Source: Escherichia phage ZCEC14. Taken from it: 64,000 nucleotides of DNA. Position numbers and translations under genes: made by a program. Position 1 is the stretch's first letter, and each line of letters begins with the position of its first letter. Below, one piece after another: positions 26,927 through 27,757 of this stretch. Under the pieces are notes generated by a model. That model was given only the letters and a program-made list of their open reading frames with translations. It had not been told where the DNA came from and made no database searches. The DNA lies in sequence record OP168898.1. One strand, 5' to 3'.

Positions 26927-26999
26927 TGGGAATTAGCCAAGTTGGTAAGGCACTGGATTTTGATTCCAGGATGCAAAGGTTCGAGTCCTTTATTCCCAG
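26927..26999 (+). tRNA. tRNA-Gln (anticodon UUG)
   Basis: Acceptor TGGGAAT/ATTCCCA, anticodon loop TTTTGAT, T-arm GGTTCGAGTCC. Confidence 0.85.
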
Positions 27000-27000
27000 C

Positions 27001-27087
27001 GCGAGAATGGTCAAATTGGTAAAGGCACAGCACTTAAAATGCTGCGGAATGATTTCCTTGTGGGTTCGAGTCCCACTTCTCGCACCA
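27001..27087 (+). tRNA. tRNA-Leu (anticodon UAA), class II with long variable arm, CCA encoded
   Basis: Acceptor GCGAGAA/TTCTCGC, anticodon loop CTTAAAA, T-arm GGTTCGAGTCC, 3' ACCA. Confidence 0.85.
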
Positions 27088-27092
27088 AATTT

Positions 27093-27166
27093 GCGGATAT
27101 CGTATAATGGCATTACCTCAGACTTCCAATCTGATGATGTGAGTTCGATTCTCATTATCCGCTCCA
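27093..27166 (+). tRNA. tRNA-Gly (anticodon UCC)
   Basis: Acceptor GCGGATA/TATCCGC, anticodon loop CTTCCAA, T-arm AGTTCGATTCT, 3' TCCA. Confidence 0.85.
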
Positions 27167-27176
27167 ATTTAATTTA

Positions 27177-27250
27177 CTCCGTGTAGCTCAGTTTGGTAGA
27201 GCGCCTGATTTGGGATCAGGAGGTCCAAGGTTCAAATCCTTGTATGGAGA
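27177..27250 (+). tRNA. tRNA-Pro (anticodon UGG)
   Basis: D-arm TAGCTCAGTTTGGTAGAGC, anticodon loop TTTGGGA, T-arm GGTTCAAATCC; no encoded CCA. Confidence 0.8.
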
Positions 27251-27252
27251 CT

Positions 27253-27342
27253 GGAGGCGTGGCAGAGTGGTTTAATGCACCGGTCTTGAAAACCGGCAGT
27301 CGCTCCGGCGACTCATAGGTTCAAATCCTATCGCCTCCGCCA
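27253..27342 (+). tRNA. tRNA-Ser (anticodon UGA), class II, CCA encoded
   Basis: Acceptor GGAGGCG/CGCCTCC, anticodon loop CTTGAAA, long variable arm, T-arm GGTTCAAATCC. Confidence 0.85.
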
Positions 27343-27347
27343 GTTTT

Positions 27348-27423
27348 GCTGATTTAGCTCAGTAGGTAGAGCAACTCACTTGTAATGAGAAGGTCGGCGG
27401 TTCGATTCCGTCAATCAGCACCA
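27348..27423 (+). tRNA. tRNA-Thr (anticodon UGU)
   Basis: Acceptor GCTGATT/AATCAGC, anticodon loop CTTGTAA, T-arm GGTTCGATTCC, 3' ACCA. Confidence 0.85.
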
Positions 27424-27424
27424 A

Positions 27425-27499
27425 GGCCCTGTAGCTGGAAGGTTCAAGCAAGCGACTCATAATCGCCAGATGGTGGTTCAATTCCACCCAGGGCCACCA
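27425..27499 (+). tRNA. tRNA-Ile (anticodon CAU, presumably lysidine-modified; tRNA-Met not excluded)
   Basis: Acceptor GGCCCTG/CAGGGCC, anticodon loop CTCATAA, T-arm GGTGGTTCAATTCCACC, 3' ACCA; position matches T4 tRNA-Ile. Confidence 0.7.
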
Positions 27500-27511
27500 A
27501 ATTATGAATTA

Positions 27512-27598
27512 GGGGAGTTATCCCGTAGAGGTAGCGGTGTGGACTGTAAATCCATTGTCATTGCGACTCGGGTGGTTCGACTCCATCACTCCCCACCA
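27512..27598 (+). tRNA. tRNA-Tyr (anticodon GUA), class II with long variable arm
   Basis: Acceptor GGGGAGT/ACTCCCC perfect 7 bp, anticodon loop CTGTAAA, variable stem GTC-ATTGC-GAC, T-arm GGTGGTTCGACTCCATC, 3' ACCA. Confidence 0.7.
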
Positions 27599-27602
27599 AT
27601 TT

Positions 27603-27677
27603 GGATGTGTAGCTCAATGGCAGAGCGATCGCCTGTTAAGCGATTGGTTATAGGTTCGAATCCTATCACGTCCGCCA
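27603..27677 (+). tRNA. tRNA-Asn (anticodon GUU)
   Basis: Acceptor GGATGTG/CACGTCC, D-arm GCTCAATGGCAGAGC, anticodon loop CTGTTAA, T-arm AGGTTCGAATCCT, 3' GCCA. Confidence 0.75.
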
Positions 27678-27681
27678 AATC

Positions 27682-27757
27682 CGAGGCATAGCTCAGAAGG
27701 AAGAGCAAGGACCTTCTAAGTCCTGGGTCGTAGGTTCGATCCCTACTGCCTCGACCA
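27682..27757 (+). tRNA. tRNA-Arg (anticodon UCU)
   Basis: Acceptor CGAGGCA/TGCCTCG, D-arm TAGCTCAGAAGGAAGAGC, anticodon loop CTTCTAA, T-arm GGTTCGATCCC, 3' ACCA. Confidence 0.85.

What the first reader, a model, noticed from the sequence alone, without database searches (positions are those of the whole stretch)
26927..27757. Ten-tRNA cluster with tRNA-Tyr and tRNA-Asn in addition to the canonical T4 set
Back-to-back cloverleafs give Gln(UUG), Leu(UAA), Gly(UCC), Pro(UGG), Ser(UGA), Thr(UGU), Ile(CAU), Tyr(GUA), Asn(GUU) and Arg(UCU). T4 as I know it encodes eight tRNAs (Arg, Gln, Gly, Ile, Leu, Pro, Ser, Thr) reading A-ending codons. Tyr and Asn sit between Ile and Arg here and do not follow the A-ending logic. 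The CAU tRNA is assigned Ile by analogy and would need lysidine modification.
Basis: partly seen in the sequence, partly recalled or inferred. Interest (0 to 1): 0.45.

Follow-up and report, generated by a model that had tools for sequence, protein, structure and literature searches.

The report
T2-type ten-tRNA cluster of T4-like phage
The ten back-to-back tRNA genes are real, but this layout (with tRNA-Tyr and tRNA-Asn where T4 carries the segB homing-endonuclease gene) was described for phage T2L in 2008 and is annotated in hundreds of T4-like genomes, so it is ordinary.

Summary
Confirmed and already known. ARAGORN and Rfam find ten tRNAs at 26927-27757 (+): Gln, Leu, Gly, Pro, Ser, Thr, CAU, Tyr, Asn, Arg. 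The window is a Tequatrovirus. It matches T4 (~94%) up to the first 12 nt of the CAU tRNA. From 27437 to 28125 it carries a different block, CAU-Tyr-Asn-Arg plus a 116-aa ORF, where T4 has Ile-segB-Arg. The CAU and Arg tRNAs here are different sequences from T4's, not T4's genes with two inserted. Published T2L primers map collinearly onto this block, and tRNA-Asn holds the exact 27-bp preferred SegB cleavage site (Brok-Volchanskaya 2008). In the phage collection the Tyr+Asn block occurs in 433 records and T4's segB in 126. The CAU tRNA is best read as lysidine-dependent tRNA-Ile2: it has the C4-G69/C5-G68 pairs and its best E. coli match is tRNA-Ile. Tyr scores only 30 bits, but covariation across 16 phage homologues supports a cloverleaf with a shifted D-stem, and it differs at 2 nt from the tested T6 tRNA-Tyr, which counters Septu when over-expressed. 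AAU and UAU are among the codons most over-used relative to an E. coli sample. Low interest.

The parts
26927..27000 (+). tRNA-Gln (UUG); no encoded CCA, abuts tRNA-Leu
   Evidence: ARAGORN; Rfam 67.4 bits. It is 89% identical to T4 Gln, differing in the anticodon stem.
27001..27087 (+). tRNA-Leu (UAA), long variable arm
   Evidence: 59.3 bits; 100% identical to T4 Leu.
27093..27166 (+). tRNA-Gly (UCC)
   Evidence: 63.3 bits; 99% identical to T4 Gly.
27177..27251 (+). tRNA-Pro (UGG)
   Evidence: 66.8 bits; 100% identical to T4 Pro.
27253..27342 (+). tRNA-Ser (UGA), long variable arm; contains a weaker SegB-type site at 27318-27344
   Evidence: 62.6 bits; 97% identical to T4 Ser; site comparison.
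27348..27423 (+). tRNA-Thr (UGU). T2L has the trna.1 ORF at this position instead.
   Evidence: 72.9 bits; 96% identical to T4 Thr. The T2L trna.1 primers are absent from the window.
27425..27499 (+). CAU-anticodon tRNA, predicted tRNA-Ile2 (reads AUA after lysidine at C34). It is the T2L-type allele, labelled 'tRNA-Met' in most records.
   Evidence: 59.9 bits. Only the first 12 nt are continuous with T4. The best E. coli match is annotated tRNA-Ile, 81.6% over the full length. The C4-G69 and C5-G68 pairs are read from the sequence. T2L primer #5 matches exactly at 27456-27477.
27512..27598 (+). tRNA-Tyr (GUA), phage-type, with a long variable arm, encoded CCA and a non-canonical D-arm
   Evidence: ARAGORN; Rfam 30.2 bits. 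It differs at 2 nt from T6 tRNA-Tyr. Covariation gives 95.8% paired cells and 15 of 24 pairs with changes on both sides. T2L primer #12 matches exactly.
27603..27677 (+). tRNA-Asn (GUU), G73 discriminator, encoded CCA
   Evidence: 74.1 bits, the best of the ten. GiZh is 100% identical over 27500-27681 and annotates tRNA-Tyr and tRNA-Asn there. T2L primer #6 matches exactly.
27653..27679 (.). Preferred 27-bp SegB homing-endonuclease recognition site, GGTTCGAATCCTATCACGTCCGCCAAA, in the T-arm and 3' end of tRNA-Asn
   Evidence: It differs from the Ser site at exactly G6, A16, G18, A26 and A27, the positions stated for T2L tRNA-Asn in PMC2330249.
27682..27757 (+). tRNA-Arg (UCU), T2L-type allele; its stems are unrelated to those of T4 tRNA-Arg
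   Evidence: 65.8 bits; alignment with T4 Arg. T2L primers #13 (1 mismatch) and #7 (exact) map here.
27776..28126 (+). 116-aa ORF, counterpart of the T2L 'trna.2' ORF; function unknown
   Evidence: ORF list; phrog_3355, unknown function, E=1e-53. T2L primers #24 and #25 map to it. It is absent in T4 and GiZh.
28123..28386 (+). rnaD (species 2) and rnaC (species 1) stable RNAs. Coordinates are approximate, transferred from T4. rnaC ends with a tRNA-like T-arm motif at 28365.
   Evidence: Window 28126-28465 is 95% identical to T4 71168-70830. T4 annotates rnaD at 71053-71171 and rnaC at 70908-71046. Motif position. No Rfam family matched.
28438..28461 (+). Terminator-like hairpin followed by a T-run, closing the tRNA/stable-RNA unit
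   Evidence: GiZh annotates a putative terminator at the corresponding place.
27437..28125 (+). Block with no T4 homology (rest of the CAU tRNA, Tyr, Asn, Arg, trna.2 ORF). It occupies the place of T4's Ile-segB-Arg.
   Evidence: blastn of the window against T4; T4 annotation.

Best explanation
This is the tRNA operon of a Tequatrovirus (T4-like phage) in its T2L-type form. Ten tRNA genes are transcribed together with the stable RNAs rnaD and rnaC and are cut into mature tRNAs by host enzymes. The left part (Gln to Thr) is the same as in T4. The right part, Ile2(CAU)-Tyr-Asn-Arg(UCU) plus the trna.2 ORF, is an alternative allele of T4's Ile-segB-Arg segment.

Function is inferred in three parts. 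First, all ten tRNAs top up decoders for codons that the 35%-GC phage uses far more than its host. For two-codon NAY boxes that means GUN anticodons, so Tyr and Asn extend the T4 logic rather than break it. Second, tRNA-Tyr additionally buffers against host defences that cut tRNA-Tyr. This was shown for the near-identical T6 gene against Septu when over-expressed or amplified. T5 tRNA-Tyr was shown to counter retron-Eco7, and the T5-like (Tequintavirus) homologues sampled here share this window's variable arm. Third, tRNA-Asn carries the preferred cleavage site of T4 SegB, so in a mixed infection with T4 this block is the recipient allele that is converted to the segB allele.

The gene identities, the mosaic boundaries, the SegB site and the codon statistics are shown here. 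Expression, charging, lysidine modification and any fitness effect in this particular phage are inferred.
For: The ten tRNAs are found by ARAGORN and Rfam. The window is placed in Tequatrovirus by 1062 matching phage records and by GiZh being 100% identical over the Tyr+Asn block. T4 has Ile-segB-Arg-rnaD-rnaC. Homology to T4 breaks at 27436 and resumes at 28126, and the CAU and Arg tRNAs diverge from T4's.

Eight T2L (AJ880101) primers map collinearly at a near-constant offset (26431-26433) from 27456 to 28118. The 27-bp SegB site in Asn has the five published diagnostic bases.

For Tyr, the sequence differs at 2 nt from T6. Covariation over 16 homologues from the phage genera sampled plus an E. 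coli plasmid gives 95.8% paired cells against about 50% for slid controls, 15 of 24 pairs with changes on both sides, and 0 of 500 shuffles reaching that. T6 tRNA-Tyr is detected by northern blot and rescues T6 from Septu, while T4, which lacks the gene, cannot escape.

For the CAU tRNA, the best E. coli match is tRNA-Ile.

For codon demand, Tyr is 1.79x, Lys 1.68x and Asn 1.61x the E. coli sample. AAU is 3.35x with the largest absolute excess, and UAU is 2.58x and fourth. Asn reaches 6.75% in the minus-strand, presumed late structural ORFs.
Against: Tyr is only 1 bit above the Rfam threshold, and its minimum-free-energy fold is not a cloverleaf (z = -0.91). The T6 study calls T6 tRNA-Tyr relatively unstable. 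It also finds that Septu cleaves it and that one wild-type copy is not enough for escape. The tRNA region is described as non-essential, so any benefit is conditional. tRNA-His, present in related phages, does not fit the demand model: His is depleted to 0.68x and CAU is only 1.1x. The E. coli reference is only 42 genes, and the phage ORFs were called by a simple rule. The covariation alignment was anchored by hand on sequence motifs.
Confidence: 0.85

Rival explanations
1. The extra tRNAs are purely an anti-defence cargo. On this view Tyr, Asn and (in relatives) His are kept to replenish or decoy host tRNAs destroyed by tRNA-cutting immune nucleases, and codon usage plays no part.
For: T6 tRNA-Tyr, which differs from this one at 2 nt, rescues T6 from Septu when over-expressed, and a T6 deletion of the tRNA-rich region is more sensitive to Septu. 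T5 tRNA-Tyr counters retron-Eco7. The extras in this lineage (Tyr, Asn, His) all have GUN anticodons. The same Tyr sequence has spread across unrelated phage groups and plasmids.
Against: No defence system targeting tRNA-Asn was found in the papers read. In the one test seen, a phage tRNA-Asn did not rescue from PrrC. AAU and UAU are among the most over-used codons, which the demand model predicts without invoking defence. T6 tRNA-Tyr is itself cleaved by Septu.
Confidence: 0.25
2. The block is essentially neutral passenger DNA. On this view its distribution is set by homing-endonuclease traffic and recombination at conserved T-arm motifs, not by selection on the tRNAs.
For: The region is non-essential, and SegB converts the T2L-type block to the T4 type in more than 99% of progeny. 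Several architectures coexist: with or without His, with or without an endonuclease, with or without trna.2, and Thr versus trna.1. A GGTTCRANTCC motif recurs in eight of the ten tRNAs and in rnaC.
Against: Compensatory changes maintain every stem of Tyr across the phage genera sampled, which shows purifying selection on the RNA. The Tyr+Asn block is found in 433 records at high identity. There is also an experimental phenotype for the T6 copy.
Confidence: 0.1
3. tRNA-Tyr is a degenerate pseudogene or a stable RNA that is not a tRNA.
For: It scores 30.2 bits on Rfam. Homologues are labelled 'Pseudo' or 'OTHER', or left unannotated, in several GenBank records. The fold is poor. ARAGORN's D-stem has a C-C mismatch.
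Against: The low score is a trait of the whole family. Its members score 28-39 bits against 53 for E. coli tyrU, and this includes the T5-like homologues. The stems covary. A73, the G1-C72 pair, the GUA anticodon, the long variable arm and the encoded CCA are all present. T6 tRNA-Tyr is expressed and active. Only one of the 16 homologues (PcCB7V) has a broken acceptor stem.
Confidence: 0.03

Closest known systems
Phage T2L tRNA gene region (EMBL AJ880101; Brok-Volchanskaya et al. 2008, PMC2330249)
   Same: The order CAU('Met')-Tyr-Asn-Arg-trna.2 ORF-rnaD/rnaC is the same, and segB is absent in both. Eight T2L primers match collinearly with 0-1 mismatch. The preferred SegB site in tRNA-Asn is identical at the five diagnostic positions.
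   Different: T2L has the trna.1 ORF between Ser and the CAU tRNA and, going by the list of cleavage sites, no tRNA-Thr. The window has Thr and no trna.1: primers #22 and #23 are absent and the spacing is 450 bp shorter.
Phage T4 tRNA cluster (NC_000866, 70.9-72.5 kb)
   Same: Gln, Leu, Gly, Pro, Ser and Thr are 89-100% identical. The flanking trna.2-trna.4 ORFs and rnaD/rnaC are shared, and the operon layout is the same.
   Different: T4 has segB between Ile and Arg and has no Tyr or Asn. Its Ile and Arg tRNAs are different sequences. T4 lacks the 116-aa ORF after Arg.
Phage T6 tRNA-rich region and its tRNA-Tyr (Chihara et al. 2026, PMC13096335)
   Same: The tRNA-Tyr differs at only 2 of 87 nt, both in stems. 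It sits directly after the CAU tRNA in both.
   Different: T6 has segB right after Tyr. No Asn, Pro or Ser is annotated in the stretch read. The anti-Septu effect was shown for T6, not for this phage.
Annotated Tequatrovirus genomes such as GiZh (KT184311), Sf25, PinkRuby and vB_EcoM_11B_SA_NWU
   Same: GiZh has the same ten tRNAs in the same order and is 100% identical over Tyr+Asn. Sf25 has CAU-Tyr-Asn-Arg followed by the ORF.
   Different: GiZh lacks the 116-aa ORF. PinkRuby adds tRNA-His (11 tRNAs). 11B_SA_NWU adds His and an endonuclease gene.

Membership tests
tRNA (Rfam RF00005), all ten genes | Covariance-model score at or above the gathering threshold of 29 bits | tested here: met
   Scores are 59.3-74.1 bits for nine genes and 30.2 bits for Tyr.
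tRNA (Rfam RF00005), Tyr specifically | Cloverleaf stems maintained by compensatory changes among homologues | tested here: met
   95.8% of cells are paired, 15 of 24 pairs have changes on both sides, 0 of 500 shuffles reach this, and slid controls give 41-58%. The alignment was anchored by hand on sequence motifs.
tRNA (Rfam RF00005), Tyr specifically | Canonical D-arm geometry: 2-nt connector, with the D-stem at positions 10-13 and 22-25 | tested here: not met
   The canonical register used by ARAGORN is only 64% paired, and one of its pairs never forms. The conserved stem is CYG/CRG, shifted 2 nt towards the 3' end, which leaves a 4-5 nt connector.
Lysidine-dependent tRNA-Ile2 (anticodon CAU) | CAU anticodon together with the acceptor pairs C4-G69 and C5-G68. 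I recall these pairs as the TilS determinants (Ikeuchi et al. 2005, from memory). | tested here: met
   The acceptor stem is GGCCCUG/CAGGGCC, and the anticodon loop is CUCAUAA with A37 and A38, read.
Lysidine-dependent tRNA-Ile2 (anticodon CAU) | Closer to the host tRNA-Ile(CAU) genes than to tRNA-Met | tested here: met
   The best matches in 5412 E. coli genomes are features annotated tRNA-Ile, at 81.6% over all 75 nt, with a median of 2 places per genome.
Lysidine-dependent tRNA-Ile2 (anticodon CAU) | C34 actually converted to lysidine, and the tRNA charged with Ile | not testable with these tools
   This needs mass spectrometry and a charging assay.
T2L-type tRNA gene region | Order CAU-Tyr-Asn-Arg-trna.2 without segB, collinear with AJ880101 | tested here: met
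   Primers #5, #12, #6, #13, #7, #24 and #25 map at a near-constant offset of 26431-26433 with 0-1 mismatch, and #11 maps at 26431 with 3 mismatches. No segB-like ORF is present.
T2L-type tRNA gene region | Preferred 27-bp SegB site inside tRNA-Asn (G6, A16, G18, A26, A27 relative to the Ser site) | tested here: met
   One search compared with the text quoted.
T2L-type tRNA gene region | trna.1 ORF between Ser and the CAU tRNA | tested here: not met
   Primers #22 and #23 are not found even allowing 4 mismatches. tRNA-Thr occupies this position.
T4-type tRNA region | segB homing-endonuclease gene between Ile and Arg, and eight tRNAs | tested here: not met
   There is no homology to T4 positions 71169-72021, and ten tRNAs are present.
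Bacterial-type tRNA-Tyr (class II) | GUA anticodon, long variable arm, G1-C72 pair and A73 discriminator. These TyrRS identity elements are from my own knowledge. | tested here: met
   The features are read from the sequence. The variable-arm stem GUC/GAC is shared with E. coli tyrU, but the loop is 5 nt instead of 3.
Anti-defence phage tRNA-Tyr (T6 against Septu; T5 against retron-Eco7) | Sequence near-identity to the tested T6 gene | tested here: met
   85 of 87 nt are identical. The variable region is identical to that of the T5-like homologues ESCO40 and GSP044.
Anti-defence phage tRNA-Tyr (T6 against Septu; T5 against retron-Eco7) | Rescue of this phage from a nuclease that cleaves tRNA-Tyr | not testable with these tools
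   This needs plaque assays on hosts carrying Septu or retron-Eco7.

The most novel reading that the evidence does not exclude
The variable extras of this lineage (Tyr and Asn here, plus His in relatives) all have GUN anticodons, which I recall as the queuosine-modified class, and Asp joins Asn and Tyr in Felix-O1-like phages. They may form a mobile anti-nuclease cassette aimed at host or colicin-type enzymes that cut this class of tRNA. From memory, colicin E5 cuts Tyr, His, Asn and Asp tRNAs. The odd D-arm of the widely transferred phage-type tRNA-Tyr would then be part of that adaptation, through evasion or decoy action, rather than a defect. The hints are these. Asn is the commonest immediate neighbour of Tyr in 120 viral loci, at 2.7 times background. 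The order Asn-Tyr-Asp occurs in KhF2. His does not fit codon demand. The same Tyr sequence is found in unrelated phage groups and on plasmids.
Probability: 0.1. Interest if true: 0.5.

Novelty: already known. Interest (0 to 1): 0.12.

Why it matters
The finding matters little as a discovery. The layout was mapped in T2L in 2008, is annotated in hundreds of genomes, and its tRNA-Tyr was studied functionally in T6 in 2026.

It is useful as a calibration point. T4's eight-tRNA/segB layout is the minority form among T4-like phages, with 126 records carrying segB against 433 carrying the Tyr+Asn block.

Two practical points follow. The phage-type tRNA-Tyr is systematically under-called by tRNA finders because of its shifted D-stem. 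The CAU tRNA is widely mislabelled tRNA-Met.

Tried and rejected
1. An IMG/VR pattern scan for the Tyr anticodon arm returned 120 loci. All of their tRNA-Tyr genes were at most 75% identical to this one, so they were useless for family covariation. They were used only for neighbour statistics.

2. The automatic MAFFT alignment of the Tyr homologues misplaced gaps at the 5' end. It was replaced by a motif-anchored, N-padded alignment.

3. Single-sequence folding did not recover the Tyr cloverleaf and is uninformative for this tRNA.

4. The promoter scan gave no more sites than the shuffles (6 found against 6.9 expected), so no promoter is claimed.

5. Rfam has no family matching rnaC or rnaD. 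The sub-threshold hits to Plastid-ycf2, sX4, YrlA and tRNA-Sec are overlaps with the tRNAs themselves and were dismissed.

6. A recent host origin for Tyr and Asn was rejected. Tyr has no E. coli chromosomal match, and Asn's best match is a partial 79% hit to a tRNA-Thr.

7. The pseudogene reading of Tyr was rejected.

8. PHROGs gives only 'unknown function' for the 116-aa ORF.
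Full report
**Observation.** ARAGORN finds exactly ten tRNA genes in the 64-kb window. Rfam's tRNA model recovers all ten above its 29-bit threshold. Nine score 59-74 bits, and Asn is the best at 74.1. Tyr is marginal at 30.2 bits. In a more permissive search its best clan match is tRNA-Sec at 34.4 bits, below that family's threshold of 47.

**What the window is.** The 2.1 kb around the cluster matches 1062 phage records, almost all Tequatrovirus or other T4-like phages of enterobacteria. The 182-bp Tyr+Asn segment is covered at 80% or more in 433 records. 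It is 100% identical in phage GiZh, which annotates the same ten tRNAs in the same order.

**Comparison with T4.** T4 annotates Gln, Leu, Gly, Pro, Ser, Thr, Ile, then the GIY-YIG homing-endonuclease gene segB, then Arg, rnaD and rnaC.
- The window aligns with T4 at about 94% from the upstream trna.3 ORF through the first 12 nt of the CAU tRNA, ending at 27436.
- Homology then stops and resumes at 28126 with rnaD/rnaC at 95%.
- Inside the gap, the CAU tRNA shares only about two thirds of its positions with T4 Ile.
- The Arg(UCU) tRNA has entirely different acceptor, D and anticodon stems from T4 Arg.

The window is therefore not T4's set with two genes inserted. A whole block (CAU tRNA, Tyr, Asn, Arg and a 116-aa ORF at 27776-28126) replaces T4's Ile-segB-Arg.

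**Literature.** Brok-Volchanskaya et al. 2008 (PMC2330249) sequenced the tRNA regions of T2L, RB1 and RB3.
- These regions lack segB.
- The paper describes T2L tRNA-Met(CAU), Tyr, Asn and Arg genes and two ORFs, trna.1 and trna.2.
- SegB's preferred 27-bp site lies inside T2L tRNA-Asn.
- In T4 x T2L co-infection, a region of about 1250 bp holding those genes is replaced by the T4 allele in more than 99% of progeny.

The paper prints its T2L primers, and I mapped them onto the window.
- Eight primers, from the CAU tRNA to the end of the 116-aa ORF, map at a near-constant offset (26431-26433).
- Seven of the eight carry 0-1 mismatch. Primer #11 carries 3, in the spacer upstream of the CAU tRNA.
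- The four primers in Gln-Pro match exactly at an offset 450 bp larger.
- The two trna.1 primers are absent.

So the window has T2L's right half. In the place where T2L has trna.1, it has the T4-like tRNA-Thr.

The sequence GGTTCGAATCCTATCACGTCCGCCAAA at 27653-27679 differs from the corresponding Ser site at exactly positions 6, 16, 18, 26 and 27, with G, A, G, A and A in Asn. Those are the five bases the paper names as making the Asn site preferred.

**Other architectures in relatives.**
- PinkRuby has CAU-Tyr-Asn-His-Arg.
- vB_EcoM_11B_SA_NWU adds an endonuclease gene after His.
- T6 has CAU-Tyr-segB.
- ime09 has the Tyr gene but does not annotate it.

In the phage collection, T4-type segB is covered at 80% or more in 126 records, the His block in 216 and the Tyr+Asn block in 433. 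T4's layout is the minority form.

**Is Tyr a real tRNA?**
- Its minimum-free-energy fold is not a cloverleaf.
- ARAGORN's D-stem contains a C-C mismatch.
- Homologues at 75-97% identity occur in Vequintavirus, Seunavirus, Phapecoctavirus, Tequintavirus (T5-like), Felixounavirus, Karamvirus, Moonvirus, Jiaodavirus, Certrevirus and a schitovirus. They also occur on E. coli plasmids.
- Several of these copies are unannotated or flagged 'Pseudo'.

I anchored 16 homologues on invariant sequence motifs and padded the length differences with N.
- The cloverleaf is paired in 95.8% of cells, against 41-58% when the partners are slid.
- 15 of 24 pairs show changes on both sides, and no shuffle in 500 reaches the observed values on four of the five measures.
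- The conserved D-stem is CYG/CRG, always paired, with three CG-to-UA double changes. It lies 2 nt towards the 3' end from ARAGORN's register.
- ARAGORN's register is only 64% paired, and one of its pairs never forms.
- This leaves a 4-5 nt connector after the acceptor stem instead of the usual two.

The whole family scores 28-39 bits, against 53 for E. coli tyrU, and that includes the T5-like copies. One copy of the 16 (PcCB7V) has a broken acceptor stem.

The window's Tyr differs from T6's at 2 nt, both in stems. The T6 gene product is seen on northern blots. It rescues T6 from the Septu system, which cuts the tRNA-Tyr variable arm, when over-expressed or amplified by SegB. T4, which lacks the gene, cannot escape. 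T5 tRNA-Tyr likewise counters retron-Eco7. The pseudogene reading is rejected. The caveat is that the alignment was hand-anchored.

**Is the CAU tRNA Ile or Met?** ARAGORN and most GenBank records say Met, going by the anticodon alone. Three lines favour Ile2.
- The acceptor stem GGCCCUG/CAGGGCC carries the C4-G69 and C5-G68 pairs. From my own knowledge (Ikeuchi et al. 2005), these are what TilS uses to tell tRNA-Ile2 from tRNA-Met.
- A73, C29-G41, U12-A23, A37 and A38 are present.
- Its best match in 5412 E. coli genomes is a feature annotated tRNA-Ile, at 81.6% over the full length, with a median of two places per genome.

The modification itself cannot be tested here.

**Codon logic.** I compared 91 greedily chosen window ORFs (18,249 codons) with 42 annotated E. 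coli K-12 genes (14,748 codons).
- Tyr is the most enriched amino acid (1.79x), followed by Lys (1.68x) and Asn (1.61x).
- Ranked by ratio, the top codons are AGA, AUA, GGA, UCA and ACA, all read by the T4-type tRNAs. AAU comes next at 3.35x, and UAU is at 2.58x.
- Ranked by absolute excess, AAU is first and UAU fourth.
- Minus-strand ORFs are presumed late structural genes. This rests on my knowledge of T4 strand use and on the T6 annotation. They use Asn at 6.75% and Tyr at 4.74%.

No A-ending Tyr or Asn codons exist, so 'A-ending' is the wrong generalisation. 'Codons the phage over-uses' covers all ten tRNAs. His, found in relatives, does not fit: it is 0.68x as an amino acid, and CAU is only 1.1x.

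**Origin.** Tyr has no match on any E. coli chromosome. It is 94% identical to a tRNA-Tyr on 72-112 kb plasmids in 269 genomes. Asn has no good E. coli match. Neither gene is a recent capture from the host.

**Verdict.** The feature is the already described T2L-type tRNA cluster, common among T4-like phages. Novelty: already known. Interest: low.

Noticed in passing
window 27512-27598; loci L128-L140: The phage-type tRNA-Tyr family has a D-stem (CYG/CRG) shifted 2 nt towards the 3' end from the canonical register, which leaves a 4-5 nt connector after the acceptor stem. The family scores about 20 bits lower on Rfam than E. coli tyrU. It is often unannotated or called 'Pseudo' in GenBank records, including ime09, Merlin, KP179, EspYZU08, HS106 and APECc02.
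   Followed up: yes
L140 (NZ_CP024264.1 13133-19219), tRNAs at 2921-3471: A tRNA-Tyr 94% identical to the window's occurs on 72-112 kb plasmids in 269 of 5426 complete E. coli genomes and on no chromosome. In the example read it sits in an Asn-Tyr-Thr-Ser array beside genes for DNA ligase, PhoH, glutaredoxin and an integrase, which looks like a phage-plasmid.
   Followed up: partly
L137 (KhF2) 61-315; L130 162-341; L003 1313-1668; 120 IMG/VR loci L007-L126: tRNAs with GUN anticodons tend to sit together: Asn-Tyr-Asp in a Felix-O1-like phage, Tyr-Asn in a Phapecoctavirus, and Tyr-Asn-His in Tequatrovirus variants. In 120 viral loci, Asn is the commonest immediate neighbour of Tyr (14 of 110 slots, 2.7x background). 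The count was not corrected for phylogeny.
   Followed up: partly
window 28556-29119 (+): A 187-aa ORF (phrog_2280, unknown function) is an insertion of about 680 bp relative to T4, between rnaC and e.8. It begins MKTYAEFLTEAA, the same MKTxxEF start as T4 internal protein IPI and as the window's ORFs at 25310 and 25687. This suggests a capsid-targeted internal protein.
   Followed up: partly
window 27776-28126 (+): The 116-aa ORF (phrog_3355, counterpart of T2L trna.2) between tRNA-Arg and rnaD is present in ime09, PinkRuby and Sf25 but absent in GiZh and T4. It is a presence/absence polymorphism of unknown function.
   Followed up: partly
window 26927-27000: tRNA-Gln is only 89% identical to T4's. 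The anticodon stem and position 38 differ (CUGGAUUUUGAUUCCAG here, UAGCACUUUGACUGCUA in T4), while Leu, Gly and Pro are 99-100% identical.
   Followed up: no
window 28365-28391: The 3' end of rnaC carries a tRNA-like T-arm motif (GGTTCGAATCC). It therefore matches the conserved core of the SegB recognition sequence, as do eight of the ten tRNA genes.
   Followed up: no
window 25232-25900: The internal-protein (ip) region upstream of the tRNA cluster aligns to T4 only in short repeated pieces at about 80% identity, at the shared N-terminal leader. The ip genes here differ from T4 ipI; GiZh annotates ipV and ipVI at this place.
   Followed up: no
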